Of a stretch of 51,076 nt of DNA, positions 25,642 through 27,801 are shown piece by piece. The notes below the pieces were generated by a model. The model was not told the DNA's origin. It did no database searches and saw only the letters and a list, made by a program, of their open reading frames with translations. The position numbers and the translations under genes are program-made. Position 1 is the stretch's first letter. Every line of letters begins with the position of its first letter. This DNA is from a virus, in IMG/VR virus record IMGVR_UViG_3300045988_037980; one strand, written 5' to 3'.

Positions 25642-27801
25642 TCATTGCCGTTTCTTTGTCGCTCCCGACACATAATGCGGATTTCCCCTTAAATTATCCA
25701 CACGCAAGATGCTAATTCCATAAACCAATGAAATGCGTTTTGCGTATGCCTTGAAGTCTGTTATGACCATGCCGCATTGTGGGTCATAAACTCTCATTGT
25801 GCCATCTTTGAACCTTTCCATTGTTATGATATGCCCGCTACGGCGATTTTTCCATCCAAAATTTATGTGGTATCGACCGGGTGTTGAAGTCATGTCCTCA
25901 AATTCCGACATCATTACCTTGAACGTCTTGTTCTTTATCTTGTAGCCATCGACATACCGACCGCCCGCACGTTGTTTCTTTGGCACATTCCCGTTATTAT
26001 CAAGCCATGCCTTTTCTGTGGTATAGGAAAGTTCATACGGGATATTTCCTTTTCGCTTCGTGTTTTGGTTGGCTTCCACATCATATCCACGCCGCCGCAT
26101 CTCATAAGCGACAACACATGATTGGCAATTTATGTGATAGCCGCCGCCAAGCGTGAAATTCGGATTGCCTTTCAACTCGTTTGCATCATCATGGTTCATC
26201 GCCGCCGCTTTGTGCATCCCAAGCGACTTTTCCATTTCATCTTCATTGTCAGCACGTGAAACATCATACTTGCCAATGATGGAATTTGCATCGGCTTTGG
26301 GCTTGTTGGCTTCATCAATGGCATCTTGAATCCGTTTCTTCAATTTATCCAACATTTCCCTGCATGAAGCCTTTGTCATTATCCATTCTCTCTTGTCACT
26401 TGTGATGGTGGCAATAAGTTCCAACATATCGGTGACATCAATTTTGTATTTACGGGCATCCTTGATTGCTTGGGTGGCATCTGCAATGAAATTATTATAT
26501 TCTTTCATTGCAGCATCAACACGACCTTGTAAAACCGAAATGGCATTGACAACGCCGGACGGATTACGGTTTTGTATGGCATCATCAAGGATGAATGTAT
26601 TTAATCCCCATTCATTGCACAACGTGCGGATTGAAGATATTTGCGGCTTCAATTGGTCAAGCTGCCGTTGTACCGGGTCAATCTGCTTCTTGGTGTCAAA
26701 GTTTAACCCCTTGGATAACTTACCGTCCTTGAAGTTGTCTTTGATGAAATAAGGCGTGGAACTCCAATTGGCTTGCGCTTCTTCATGGTCTTTGACCCAT
26801 TCTTTGAAGCCATCCGGCACATCGACAACGACATTCTTTGCTTCCAAACGCTTGTATTGAGTGCCACGCAATGCCGCTTTGAGGTCGCCCAACTCATTTT
26901 CATCAAAGGTTTCTTCATCCATCAGGATTGGCACGGCGTAACACATACATTGCGGGTGCCAGCCCTTGAACTTGAAATGCTTTGGATAACGCCCTTTCAG
27001 CTTCTCGCAAATGTCACACTTGCACAAAGGTTCATGGTTTGACCTTTTGACCTCAAACCCCACGACAAAATCAAGGCTTTGCCAACGCAAATAATCGCTT
27101 TCACGGTATGCCATATTGATTTCAGACCGTGTAAGCCGGGCGGCATTCTTTGCGCTTGACCTGTAAACACCACGTCCGGGGTGGAATGCCCTTGCAGCCT
27201 TTGACAACACAAGGTTGCCCCGCTTGTCACGCACACGGCGGAACAATCGGTTGGGGTCTTTCAGGTTCTGCCGGACATCCCGTGAAAGTTGTGCCGCACT
27301 TCGACCCTCACCCAACCCGGCATCAAGGGCGGCTTCAAGTTGTTCACGGTATTGCCCAACATACTTCCAAATACGTTGTGAAAGGTTCATTCCCTCAACC
27401 TTGCGCCCCTGAAAGGTTTTCAAGGCATCCAAATTTTGGTCTTGCATCTTTTTCAATTGCGCCTTGCTCAACTTGGATGTATCAAGTATTGAGGAAATGA
27501 AGCCATCATTCTTGCTGCAAGCAAACAACCATTGCTTCTTTGACCCCGTTTCAATGACCGTTGTAATGCGGCTTGCAAGTTGCTTGGTGACACTTTGCAT
27601 AACCGCCTTGACACTTGGGTAATCATCGAAAGAAAACGGCTTGTCGGGGTCATATTTGCCCTTTGCCGCCGCCCTTGCTATTTCGGCGGTCGCCTTGTCA
27701 AACAAAGCATCAACGGCTTGCGTGTATTGCTCCGTTTGCCTGTAATGTGCGGCATCGAATGTCTGCACCGAAAATCGCTTTACTTTCTGCCTTTTAGCCA
27801 T
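25642..27801 (-). CDS. Head morphogenesis protein (SPP1 gp7 / Mu F family) fused to a C-terminal papain-like-fold Cys-His-Asp domain
   Basis: MuF-like core (…GMNLSQRIWKY…RLTRSEINMAYRESDY…GFEVKRS…) located after the portal gene. The C-terminal ~190 aa contain GGGYHINCQSCVVAYEMRRRGYDV, SGHIITMERF and VYDPQCG. Confidence 0.8.
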   Translation of the reverse strand: MAKRQKVKRFSVQTFDAAHYRQTEQYTQAVDALFDKATAEIARAAAKGKYDPDKPFSFDDYPSVKAVMQSVTKQLASRITTVIETGSKKQWLFACSKNDGFISSILDTSKLSKAQLKKMQDQNLDALKTFQGRKVEGMNLSQRIWKYVGQYREQLEAALDAGLGEGRSAAQLSRDVRQNLKDPNRLFRRVRDKRGNLVLSKAARAFHPGRGVYRSSAKNAARLTRSEINMAYRESDYLRWQSLDFVVGFEVKRSNHEPLCKCDICEKLKGRYPKHFKFKGWHPQCMCYAVPILMDEETFDENELGDLKAALRGTQYKRLEAKNVVVDVPDGFKEWVKDHEEAQANWSSTPYFIKDNFKDGKLSKGLNFDTKKQIDPVQRQLDQLKPQISSIRTLCNEWGLNTFILDDAIQNRNPSGVVNAISVLQGRVDAAMKEYNNFIADATQAIKDARKYKIDVTDMLELIATITSDKREWIMTKASCREMLDKLKKRIQDAIDEANKPKADANSIIGKYDVSRADNEDEMEKSLGMHKAAAMNHDDANELKGNPNFTLGGGYHINCQSCVVAYEMRRRGYDVEANQNTKRKGNIPYELSYTTEKAWLDNNGNVPKKQRAGGRYVDGYKIKNKTFKVMMSEFEDMTSTPGRYHINFGWKNRRSGHIITMERFKDGTMRVYDPQCGMVITDFKAYAKRISLVYGISILRVDNLRGNPHYVSGATKKRQ

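What the first reader, a model, noticed from the sequence alone, without database searches (positions are those of the whole stretch)
25642..26200. MuF head-morphogenesis protein fused to a C-terminal papain-like Cys-His-Asp domain (MuF polymorphic-toxin-like architecture)
The N-terminal ~500 aa of the 719-aa protein are SPP1 gp7/Mu F-like. The C-terminal ~190 aa are an extra globular domain. It has a candidate catalytic Cys in GGGYHINCQSCVVAYEMRRRGYD (codons at 26116..26127), a His in SGHIITMERF (25831..25833) and an Asp in VYDPQ (25784..25786). That order and spacing match papain-fold / CHAP / transglutaminase-like hydrolases. Temperate-phage MuF proteins are known to carry variable C-terminal toxin or effector domains that are packaged and injected. 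The small promoter-equipped ORF converging on this domain (25410..25637) is positioned like a possible immunity or partner gene, but that link is speculative.
Basis: partly seen in the sequence, partly recalled or inferred. Interest (0 to 1): 0.65.

Follow-up and report, generated by a model that had tools for sequence, protein, structure and literature searches.

The report
Phage head protein carrying a protease-like toxin
A prophage of a gut Bacteroidales bacterium encodes a capsid-associated (MuF-type) protein ending in a papain-like Cys-His-Asp toxin domain, next to a small gene that is almost certainly its antidote; this pairing has been described before from sequence analysis but has never been tested in the lab.

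Summary
ORF 25642..27801 (-) encodes a 719-aa protein. Its first ~390 aa match phage head-morphogenesis (MuF-type) PHROG families. Its last ~200 aa are a confident member of Pfam PF15644 (Gln_amidase, also called Tox-PL1). Cys559, His657, Asp673 and Gln675 are invariant in 64 homologues, and the AlphaFold2 model has pLDDT 96.

It is the best-supported part of the finding. A p75 homologue lies directly beside the PL1-encoding gene in 80 of 80 viral loci that have downstream DNA, and in 47 of 80 genome loci from several phyla. The adjacency holds in both convergent and co-directional orientation. All 40 loci found by searching with p75 also carry PL1.

A Porphyromonas phage has an orthologous head module (major capsid protein 83% identical) but carries an ADP-ribosyltransferase plus an ADP-ribosylglycohydrolase at the same position. 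This is a swappable toxin-immunity cassette, not a capsid maturation protease.

The architecture is published (Zhang 2012). The co-occurring small ORF, modelled in the active site, was reported from sequence analysis by Alexei 2024. So this is a new member of a known kind. New here are the cross-phylum spread of p75, orphan p75 copies on a small integrative element, and relatives with additional toxin domains. Activity and target remain untested.

The parts
25642..27801 (-). CDS of the 719-aa MuF-type / Tox-PL1 fusion protein (stop codon 25642..25644)
   Evidence: ORF list. Pfam and PHROG scans. The exact protein is on record on 2 contigs, the longest 224 kb.
26653..27777 (-). MuF-like head-morphogenesis region (residues ~9-383)
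   Evidence: phrog_7625 'head morphogenesis' E 1.1e-81 over residues 9-383; phrog_115, phrog_1657, phrog_4728; phrog_16625 (Bxa) E 5.9e-80. It is 61.6% identical to the 'minor capsid protein' of Porphyromonas phage005b over residues 1-396. Pfam PF04233 is not detected.
26212..26604 (-). Variable helical middle region (residues ~400-530) linking MuF to the toxin domain
   Evidence: By BLAST it is shared with the closest relatives (76-98% identical), with only weak hits (22-23% identity) in L024 and L064, and is absent or replaced in the other MuF-PL1 proteins. In the relative L203 an ADP-ribosyltransferase domain is inserted upstream of it.
25645..26250 (-). Tox-PL1 / PF15644 papain-fold domain as modelled (residues 518-719). 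The Pfam match itself spans residues 557-678, i.e. 25768..26133.
   Evidence: Pfam E 6.7e-14. AlphaFold2 pLDDT 96.0, pTM 0.92. Foldseek against BFVD gives TM 0.66-0.82 to phage 'Papain fold toxin 1', minor capsid and MuF-fusion proteins. Foldseek against PDB gives weak papain-fold hits.
26125..26127 (-). Codon of Cys559, the predicted nucleophile (the 'NC' of the NC-H-DxQ signature)
   Evidence: Invariant in 64 sequences. It is the first residue of helix 42-53 of the model, as in papain-like enzymes. Coordinates.
25831..25833 (-). Codon of His657, the predicted general base
   Evidence: Invariant. It lies in beta-strand 139-146 of the model. Coordinates.
25777..25785 (-). Codons of Asp673-Pro674-Gln675 (the DxQ motif; Asp is the third triad member)
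   Evidence: D673 and Q675 are invariant. Asp lies at the end of strand 152-156, next to the His strand. Coordinates.
25410..25637 (+). p75: a 75-aa ORF converging on the toxin domain; the predicted cognate immunity/inhibitor protein
   Evidence: A homologue is adjacent to PL1 in 80/80 viral loci and in 47/80 genome loci across phyla. In the reverse test 40/40 p75 loci carry PL1. The profile finds 819 representative clusters. No Pfam or NCBIfam family matches. AlphaFold2 pLDDT 85, alpha-beta4-alpha. No PDB fold match.
25376..25383 (+). TATCTTTG, a match to the Bacteroidetes -7 promoter element TAnnTTTG, ending 26 nt upstream of the p75 ATG
   Evidence: Sequence. The pattern is not enriched window-wide (44 found, 44 expected), but 8 + strand copies lie in the 3.5-kb + strand block 21.8-25.4 kb. 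This is suggestive only.

Best explanation
This is a MuF-type polymorphic toxin/effector with its antidote, carried by a temperate siphovirus prophage of a gut Bacteroidales bacterium.

Shown: the N-terminal ~390 aa are the conserved head-morphogenesis (MuF-like) module, encoded just downstream of the portal gene with a 63-aa ORF between them. The C-terminal ~200 aa are a Tox-PL1/PF15644 papain-fold domain with an intact Cys559-His657-Asp673 triad and the family's NC-H-DxQ signature. The domain and the adjacent 75-aa gene p75 behave as a two-gene cassette. The cassette is exchanged between otherwise orthologous head modules.

Inferred: by analogy with SPP1 gp7, the MuF part places a few copies of the protein inside the capsid at the portal, so the protein leaves the virion with the DNA. 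The PL1 domain then acts in the bacterial cytoplasm as a cysteine hydrolase on protein substrates. I put peptide-bond cleavage at about 60% and side-chain deamidation at about 40%. p75 binds over the active site and keeps the enzyme harmless in the producing cell and in lysogens. In Bacteroidales p75 sits on the opposite strand, in the block of accessory (non-structural) genes that interrupts the head module, behind a candidate promoter of its own, so it can be made while the late genes are silent.
For: Domain identity: Pfam PF15644 at 53.4 bits against a cut-off of 24.1; invariant N-C, H, D-x-Q, matching the signature given by Zhang 2012; AlphaFold2 pLDDT 96 with Cys at a helix N-terminus and His and Asp on neighbouring strands; Foldseek matches to phage PF15644 proteins at TM up to 0.82 and to the papain-fold toxins StbD-CT and Cpe1.

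Cassette behaviour: MuF N-terminal identity and PL1 identity are uncoupled, for example L010 85% vs 54% and L045 31% vs 48%. Porphyromonas phage005b shares TerL 78%, portal 67%, MuF N-terminus 62%, scaffold-like protein 61% and major capsid protein 83% with the window. It carries an R-S-E ADP-ribosyltransferase C-terminus and a convergent ADP-ribosylglycohydrolase, with no PL1 and no p75.

Partner gene: p75 is adjacent to PL1 in 80/80 viral loci. It is adjacent in 47/80 genome loci, including Lachnospiraceae, Clostridia, Coriobacteriia, Treponema and Gastranaerophilales, where it is co-directional and overlaps the toxin stop. The neighbouring ORF p76 is kept in only 10 loci. All 40 p75-seeded loci carry PL1. 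Orphan p75 copies, 63% identical, sit on an unrelated integrase + Phage_CRI element, as orphan immunity genes do. Tandem p75 duplications exist.

Literature: the MuF-Tox-PL1 fusion was described by Zhang 2012 (PMC3482391). In Bacteroidales, MuF proteins with a 'glutamine deaminase' domain always co-occur with a small ORF that AlphaFold 3 places in the active site (Alexei 2024, PMC11699363). Experimental precedents for MuF toxin-immunity pairs are Bxa/Bsi/BAH and Apk2.
Against: No toxicity, binding, packaging or enzymatic data exist for any MuF-PL1/p75 pair.

Pfam's Phage_Mu_F model does not hit the N-terminus, so 'MuF' rests on PHROG profiles and synteny.

p75 is not a detectable member of Imm35, the immunity family that Zhang 2012 linked to Tox-PL1.

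Pairwise-distance correlation between PL1 and p75 is no stronger than with the MuF N-terminus.

Among near-identical relatives the p75 and PL1 alleles are reassorted: about 30% of p75 codons differ against about 5% of PL1 codons. That argues against very tight allele specificity.

In some relatives PL1 shares the polypeptide with other toxin domains, which fits a processing role.
Confidence: 0.65

Rival explanations
1. PL1 is a cis-acting, self-processing 'releasing' peptidase of a virion-delivered multi-domain protein. It cuts the polypeptide to free itself or neighbouring effector domains after ejection. p75 is a brake that prevents premature processing, not an antidote to a toxin.
For: Zhang 2012 proposed exactly this for internal Tox-PL1 domains and for the MuF context. 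In relatives PL1 is followed by a Ser/Gly/Ala-rich linker and polymorphic CdiA_C nuclease or LPD3 domains. In L203 it is preceded by an ADP-ribosyltransferase domain. The related C39-type toxin StbD-CT auto-processes.
Against: In the window protein PL1 is the only recognisable enzymatic domain and is C-terminal, which is the arrangement Zhang 2012 reads as 'the toxin'. p75 accompanies PL1 whether or not other domains are present. Orphan p75 copies on an unrelated element make sense for a trans-acting toxin and less so for a cis-acting processing step.
Confidence: 0.2
2. PL1 is the phage's capsid maturation (prohead) protease, brought into the procapsid by the MuF part. This matches the annotation of PF15644-containing genes in Arthrobacter phages.
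For: No dedicated prohead protease is recognisable in the window's head module; ORFs 21030..21722 and 20444..21010 have unknown function. 37 Arthrobacter phages have a match to this domain; in every listed record it falls in gene 4, annotated 'capsid maturation protease' or 'head maturation protease'. PF15644 itself was confirmed by Pfam scan only for phage BarretLemon. phrog_595 and phrog_193, 'head maturation protease', give weak hits.
Against: Porphyromonas phage005b has an orthologous head module (major capsid protein 83%, portal 67%, scaffold-like protein 61% identical) but no PL1 domain. The same capsid therefore assembles without it. A housekeeping protease would not need a dedicated, tightly linked small partner with orphan copies elsewhere. 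SPP1-type heads with a scaffold need no protease (established knowledge).
Confidence: 0.05
3. PL1 is mainly a host-directed (mammalian) effector released on prophage-induced lysis. It would deamidate or cleave a eukaryotic protein, in the manner of Bxa acting on epithelial cells or OspI acting on UBC13. This does not exclude antibacterial activity.
For: Ozhelvaci and Steczkiewicz 2023 discuss PF15644 together with the OspI glutamine deamidase. Bxa, a MuF fusion in a gut Bacteroides phage, acts on host cells. The window comes from a gut Bacteroidales prophage.
Against: A cytoplasmic immunity-type partner, conserved across phyla and including non-host-associated lineages and soil actinophages, points to a bacterial cytoplasmic target. 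OspI is not among the top 50 Foldseek PDB hits, and it is not matched by the PL1 sequence or profile at E<=10.
Confidence: 0.1

Closest known systems
MuF-Tox-PL1 fusions of Zhang, de Souza, Anantharaman, Iyer and Aravind 2012 (Biol Direct 7:18; PMC3482391)
   Same: The architecture is the same: a MuF N-terminus and a C-terminal Tox-PL1 domain with the NC-H-DxQ signature, inside a prophage head module with terminase, portal and capsid genes.
   Different: That paper did not name the small partner family. It linked Tox-PL1 to Imm35, which p75 does not detectably match. It favoured a processing role for PL1 in the MuF context.
Bacteroidales MuF 'glutamine deaminase' toxin WP_139147237.1 with small ORF HMPREF2794_0665 (Alexei et al. 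2024, JBC; PMC11699363)
   Same: It is a homologue of the Bxa N-terminus fused to a domain carrying the Pfam name of PF15644, in Bacteroidales prophages. The adjacent small ORF always co-occurs, and AlphaFold 3 places it in the active site. The window protein hits the Bxa PHROG at E 5.9e-80.
   Different: I could not retrieve their sequences, so identity of the families is inferred from the labels and the context. Their analysis was computational and limited to neighbourhoods of one representative. The cross-phylum spread, orphan copies and multi-toxin relatives are added here.
Bxa / Bsi / BAH of Bacteroides stercoris phage PhiBxa, and the Apk2 / Aph1 MuF toxins
   Same: Both are MuF-anchored C-terminal toxins in the head module of temperate phages, with adjacent immunity gene(s). 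Toxicity and neutralisation were shown experimentally for these. The Porphyromonas relative of the window phage carries this ADP-ribosyltransferase + ADP-ribosylglycohydrolase type.
   Different: The toxin chemistry differs (ADP-ribosylation, (p)ppApp synthesis) and the immunity proteins are unrelated.
C39-like cysteine peptidase toxins StbD-CT (PDB 8ssm/8ssk) and Cpe1 (9l5u), which cleave GyrB/ParE
   Same: They are papain-fold Cys-His toxins of polymorphic toxin systems with small immunity proteins that cover the substrate surface. They are among the best PDB fold matches (E 4e-3 to 8e-3). There is sub-threshold sequence similarity at the His/Asp strands.
   Different: TM-scores are only 0.26-0.47 and sequence E-values exceed 0.4. 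They belong to a different Pfam family and are delivered by CDI or T6SS. Target specificity cannot be transferred.
SPP1 gp7 / Mu gpF minor head proteins
   Same: The gene lies just downstream of the portal gene, separated by a 63-aa ORF, and matches head-morphogenesis PHROG families.
   Different: Those are single-domain proteins without an effector domain. Pfam PF04233 does not match the window protein.

Membership tests
Pfam PF15644 Gln_amidase / Tox-PL1 | Profile match above the curated gathering score over the full model | tested here: met
   53.4 bits against a cut-off of 24.1, E 6.7e-14, residues 557-678, model positions 1-114 of 114.
Pfam PF15644 Gln_amidase / Tox-PL1 | Conserved NC ... 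H ... DxQ catalytic signature (Zhang 2012) | tested here: met
   N558, C559, H657, D673 and Q675 are invariant in 64 homologues. The signature is quoted.
Pfam PF15644 Gln_amidase / Tox-PL1 | Papain-like fold: the nucleophile at the N-terminus of a helix, with His and Asp on adjacent beta-strands | tested here: met
   AlphaFold2 pLDDT 96. C42 (model numbering) starts helix 42-53, H140 lies in strand 139-146 and D156 ends strand 152-156. Foldseek finds papain-fold toxins and peptidases.
Pfam PF15644 Gln_amidase / Tox-PL1 | Cysteine-dependent hydrolase (peptidase or deamidase) activity | not testable with these tools
   This needs enzyme and toxicity assays with C559A and H657A controls.
MuF polymorphic toxins (Jamet et al. 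2017) | N-terminal MuF domain (Pfam PF04233 Phage_Mu_F) | tested here: inconclusive
   PF04233 is not detected even at E<=10, and there is no NCBIfam hit. However, phrog_7625, phrog_115, phrog_1657, phrog_4728 and phrog_2841 ('head morphogenesis' / 'minor head protein') and the Bxa PHROG match strongly. Bacteroides phage homologues are annotated 'Mu protein F like protein'.
MuF polymorphic toxins (Jamet et al. 2017) | Encoded in the head-morphogenesis module of a temperate phage or prophage | tested here: met
   The gene order is terminase, portal, a 63-aa ORF, this gene; after the + strand accessory-gene block come the scaffold-like ORF and the major capsid protein. An integrase lies at 49607..50884. 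The exact protein occurs on a 224-kb contig. A near-identical prophage lies in a 2.67-Mb MAG chromosome.
MuF polymorphic toxins (Jamet et al. 2017) | Variable C-terminal domain swapped between conserved N-termini and shared with other toxin delivery systems | tested here: met
   The Porphyromonas orthologue carries an ADP-ribosyltransferase instead. MuF N-terminal identity is uncoupled from PL1 identity. PF15644 is reported in T2/T3/T6/T7SS toxins (literature).
MuF polymorphic toxins (Jamet et al. 2017) | Small adjacent ORF (<150 aa) as a candidate immunity gene | tested here: met
   p75 is 75 aa and lies 4 nt beyond the toxin stop. It is convergent here and co-directional in Firmicutes, Actinobacteria and Spirochaetes.
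MuF polymorphic toxins (Jamet et al. 2017) | Toxicity neutralised by the adjacent protein; presence in virions | not testable with these tools
Imm35 (immunity family linked to Tox-PL1 by Zhang 2012) | Profile match of the partner protein to a curated immunity family | tested here: not met
   No Pfam family at E<=1 for 12 Bacteroidales members, nor at E<=10 for 10 members from other phyla, other than chance-level hits. There is no NCBIfam hit. p75 is therefore filed as an uncurated family.
C39-like peptidase toxins (StbD-CT / Cpe1) | Sequence or close structural membership | tested here: not met
   Profile against PDB sequences gives E 0.42. Foldseek TM-scores are 0.26-0.47. The resemblance is at fold level only.
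Prohead (capsid maturation) proteases | Required and conserved within an orthologous head module | tested here: not met
   The orthologous head module of Porphyromonas phage005b (major capsid protein 83% identical) lacks the domain.

The most novel reading that the evidence does not exclude
p75 defines an uncurated immunity/inhibitor family for PF15644 found across phyla, with 819 representative clusters. PL1 would be a trans-acting hydrolase delivered from the capsid into the infected cell. Lysogens, and unrelated integrative elements that carry orphan p75 copies, would use p75 as an antidote against incoming virion-borne toxin. That would be a layer of phage-host and phage-element conflict, or kin discrimination, that operates on injected proteins rather than on DNA.
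Probability: 0.3. Interest if true: 0.6.

Novelty: new member of a known kind. Interest (0 to 1): 0.35.

Why it matters
MuF-anchored toxins are common in prophages of gut bacteria, yet only two chemistries have been tested: the ADP-ribosyltransferase Bxa and the (p)ppApp synthetase Apk2. The PF15644 class is widespread. It has no known substrate and no validated antidote.

This window offers a clean, compact pair for that test: one enzymatic domain and one 75-aa partner. The comparative data argue that the 'capsid maturation protease' label used for many phage genes with this domain is probably wrong. If the injected-toxin and antidote reading holds, it bears on how temperate phages shape competition and superinfection in the gut microbiome.

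Tried and rejected
1. AlphaFold2 of a PL1-linker-p75 chimera with a paired alignment, to test docking over the active site.

2. Public RNA-seq to see whether p75 is transcribed in lysogens.

3. Mirror-tree test. Spearman correlations were PL1-p75 0.48, MuF N-terminus-PL1 0.44 and MuF N-terminus-p75 0.51. This is not discriminating, because PL1 identities cluster at 45-50%.

4. Pfam scans of 22 p75 members and 10 small ORFs of the second family, looking for Imm35 or another immunity or inhibitor family. Nothing was found beyond chance-level hits: S8 pro-domain E 0.2 and PepSY E 0.0047.

5. hhalign of p75 against the second small-ORF family found next to divergent and actinobacterial PL1. The probability was 17%, which is inconclusive.

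6. Foldseek of the p75 model against the PDB. No match reached E < 0.1.

7. Sigma-70 promoter and terminator scan. This is the wrong promoter model for Bacteroidetes and was uninformative. The Bacteroidetes TAnnTTTG motif is present upstream of p75 but is not enriched window-wide.

8. Sequence search of the PL1 domain and the MuF N-terminus against PDB chains. No significant hit.

9. A 2193-aa 'hit' to the p75 profile (P0157) is a cadherin-like repeat protein and was rejected as spurious.

10. The short (150-350 aa) database proteins carrying PL1 suggested stand-alone toxins. The one locus examined, P0001 in L001, is a fragment from a frameshifted assembly. Several others start inside the MuF-like region or lie on contigs of about 1-5 kb. 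In the viral loci the domain sits in ORFs of 570-1004 aa.
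Full report
**What is there**

The window is most of a temperate siphovirus prophage, about 45% G+C. On the minus strand lie the small and large terminase subunits (30942..31448 and 29473..30942), an SPP1-type portal (27982..29445), a 63-aa Cys-rich ORF, and then the 719-aa ORF 25642..27801.

A 3.8-kb block on the plus strand follows. 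It holds a HigB-like toxin with an HTH partner, two unknown ORFs, a Bro-N/KilAC anti-repressor, a 76-aa ORF and the 75-aa ORF 25410..25637.

The minus-strand head genes then resume: a 230-aa scaffold-like ORF, a 188-aa ORF that is 56% identical to the annotated 'head fiber protein' of Porphyromonas phage005b, and a lambda-E-type major capsid protein at 19318..20424. An integrase sits at 49607..50884.

The exact 719-aa protein is recorded on a 224-kb contig. A prophage whose PL1 domain is 99% identical to the window's lies in the 2.67-Mb chromosome of a MAG labelled Prevotella sp. CAG:755.

**The observation**

The C-terminal domain matches Pfam PF15644 ('Gln_amidase: Papain fold toxin 1', the Tox-PL1 of Zhang et al. 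2012). The match covers the full model at 53.4 bits against a cut-off of 24.1.

I aligned residues 518-719 with 63 homologues of 26-55% identity. N558, C559, H657, D673 and Q675 are invariant. This is the NC-H-DxQ signature that defines the family.

AlphaFold2 with that alignment gives pLDDT 96 and pTM 0.92. The Cys starts a helix, and the His and Asp lie on adjacent strands, which is the papain arrangement.

Foldseek against predicted viral structures finds phage proteins at TM 0.66-0.82. Their annotations include 'Papain fold toxin 1', 'minor capsid protein' and 'capsid maturation protease and MuF-like fusion protein'. Against the PDB only fold-level matches appear: YopQ, the peptidase toxins Cpe1 and StbD-CT, a Josephin-type clippase and AvrPphB, at TM 0.26-0.54.

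The N-terminal part matches head-morphogenesis and minor-head PHROGs over residues 9-383, and also the PHROG that contains Bxa. Pfam's Phage_Mu_F model does not hit. 'MuF' is therefore a PHROG-and-synteny call. The MuF-like part is about 390 aa rather than 500. Residues 400-530 are a variable helical spacer.

**The small converging ORF is the key result**

I call the 75-aa product p75. A scan of IMG/VR with the PL1 alignment found 282 relatives, and I studied the best 80. In almost all of them PL1 ends a 570-1004-aa ORF with a MuF-like N-terminus.

BLAST, and then a p75 HMM, found exactly one p75 homologue per locus. In every locus with downstream DNA (80 of 80) it abuts the 3' end of the PL1 gene. 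This holds even where the MuF N-terminus is not detectably similar to the window's. In contrast, the next ORF (76 aa) is kept in only 10 loci.

In one-genome-per-species bacterial contigs, 47 of 80 PL1 loci have a p75 hit at E <= 1e-3 at the same position. In Bacteroidales it is usually convergent. In Lachnospiraceae, Clostridia, Coriobacteriia, Actinomycetes and Treponema it is co-directional and overlaps the toxin stop, which is the classic toxin-immunity operon layout.

The reverse test agrees: 40 of 40 loci found by searching with p75 carry PL1 next door, although many are the same contigs as before.

A profile search of 1.84 billion representative proteins gives 819 family members, nearly all 70-90 aa. 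p75 matches no Pfam or NCBIfam family. Its alpha-beta4-alpha model (pLDDT 85) has no significant PDB neighbour.

**Cassette swapping, and why this is not a maturation protease**

Porphyromonas phage005b shares an orthologous head module with the window:

| Protein | Identity to window |
|---|---|
| TerL | 78% |
| Portal | 67% |
| MuF N-terminus | 62% |
| Scaffold-like protein | 61% |
| Major capsid protein | 83% |

Its MuF protein nevertheless ends in an R-S-E ADP-ribosyltransferase domain. The converging genes at the same position are a 108-aa ORF and an ADP-ribosylglycohydrolase. There is no PL1 and no p75.

Effector and antidote have been exchanged together. This is the hallmark of polymorphic toxin systems. 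It also shows that the capsid does not need PL1. That undercuts the 'capsid maturation protease' label given to PF15644-containing genes in Arthrobacter phages. In those phages, and in mycobacteriophages, PL1 is followed by a different ~105-aa ORF family. Its relation to p75 is unresolved (hhalign probability 17%).

**Variations that bear on mechanism**

Some relatives carry further domains after PL1, behind a Ser/Gly/Ala-rich linker. These are CdiA_C-type nucleases and LPD3. One close relative has MuF-ART-spacer-PL1. These architectures keep alive Zhang et al.'s idea that PL1 can act as a releasing peptidase.

Three points favour a trans-acting, dangerous enzyme. In the window protein PL1 is the only enzymatic domain. 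p75 tracks PL1 regardless of other domains. Orphan p75 genes, 63% identical to the window's, sit on a small integrase + Phage_CRI element with no PL1 within 4 kb, and tandem p75 duplications exist.

**Prior knowledge**

Zhang et al. 2012 described the MuF-Tox-PL1 fusion in prophage head modules.

Jamet et al. 2017 defined MuF toxins and noted small downstream ORFs.

Alexei et al. 2024 showed experimentally that Bxa is neutralised by two adjacent immunity proteins. From sequence analysis they reported Bacteroidales MuF proteins with a 'glutamine deaminase' domain. The adjacent small ORF always co-occurs, and AlphaFold 3 places it in the active site. I could not retrieve their sequences, but the label is the Pfam name of PF15644 and the context is identical.

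Full-text searches for 'PF15644', 'Gln_amidase' and 'Tox-PL1' returned only two papers, neither reporting an experiment on a PF15644 phage toxin or its partner. A further search on MuF, prophage and immunity terms listed no such paper among its 12 displayed results.

**Verdict**

The kind is already known, and the immunity link has been proposed before. I score it as a new member of a known kind.

- the cross-phylum, orientation-independent coupling of PL1 and p75;
- the fact that p75 is an uncurated family;
- orphan and tandem p75 copies;
- multi-toxin relatives;
- the argument against the maturation-protease annotation.

The enzymatic chemistry (peptidase or deamidase), the target, packaging and neutralisation are inferred, not shown.

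Noticed in passing
L206:4001-4315, L207, L208 (ENA metagenome contigs): An orphan p75 homologue, 63% identical to the window's, sits on a ~5-kb integrative element with integrase, HTH_17 and a Phage_CRI replication protein, inserted next to different chromosomal genes in the three contigs (aroB-type genes in L206 and L208, a tRNA synthetase gene in L207). No PL1 domain lies within 4 kb. The protein cluster was seen on 40 contigs.
   Followed up: partly
L203:4237-7068 (-), with L204 and L205: A close relative of the window protein is a 943-aa MuF / ADP-ribosyltransferase (PF03496) / spacer / PL1 fusion, still with a convergent p75. Other relatives (L054, L066-L070, L072, L075, L077, L079) add CdiA_C nuclease, LPD3 or unassigned domains after PL1, behind a Ser/Gly/Ala-rich linker.
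   Followed up: partly
L109:6624-7724 (+): In an Eubacteriales MAG the p75 domain is the N-terminus of a 366-aa ORF. The ORF continues with an acidic linker and an FNPYHDxxGRF motif, so this is a fusion of the antidote-like domain to another protein.
   Followed up: no
window 25410..25637 vs 25645..26211, compared with L005 and L006: Between near-identical phages about 30% of p75 codons differ (12-13 synonymous, 10-12 non-synonymous, clustered at residues 20-28 and 39-43). Only about 5% of PL1 codons differ. L009 has an identical p75 but a more divergent PL1. The MuF stop appears to be a recombination boundary, and toxin and partner alleles reassort.
   Followed up: partly
L212:5117-5437 (Arthrobacter phage BarretLemon gene 5); L213:2357-2674 (Mycobacterium phage Heffalump gene 4); L137-L161: PL1 genes of actinophages and of divergent actinobacterial loci are followed by a different family of 83-106-aa ORFs that start M-x-(T/L)-x-E-(A/Q)-A. 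This family is also absent from Pfam. The PL1 genes themselves are annotated inconsistently as 'capsid maturation protease' or 'VIP2-like toxin'.
   Followed up: partly
window 22363..23029 (+): A HigB-like toxin ORF (PF05015, E 7e-12) overlaps an HTH_3 ORF. This is a type II toxin-antitoxin pair inside the plus-strand accessory-gene block that splits the head module.
   Followed up: no
window 24155..25078 (+): A Bro-N / KilAC (ANT) anti-repressor gene lies in the same accessory-gene block. It is followed by a 76-aa ORF (25075..25305) conserved only in the closest relatives.
   Followed up: no
window 27794..27985 (-): A 63-aa Cys/His-rich ORF lies between portal and MuF (phrog_34745, E 3e-22, function unknown). 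It looks like a small zinc-binding protein.
   Followed up: no
L143 (OZ006989.1 2585682-2598272): The MAG chromosome that holds the near-identical prophage carries a second MuF-PL1 locus, 33% identical in PL1, with a weak convergent p75-like ORF. That makes two cassettes of different type in one genome.
   Followed up: no
PDB 8brf (Yersinia YopQ): The best PDB fold match of the PL1 model is the type III secretion protein YopQ. There is sub-threshold sequence similarity at the His/Asp strand pair, but no His at the aligned position. YopQ may be an inactive relative of this fold.
   Followed up: no
window 21874..25383, + strand: Eight copies of the Bacteroidetes -7 promoter motif TAnnTTTG lie on the plus strand of the 3.5-kb accessory-gene block. 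Several sit 20-30 nt upstream of ORF starts (for example 22337 before 22363, and 25376 before 25410). The motif is not enriched in the window as a whole.
   Followed up: partly
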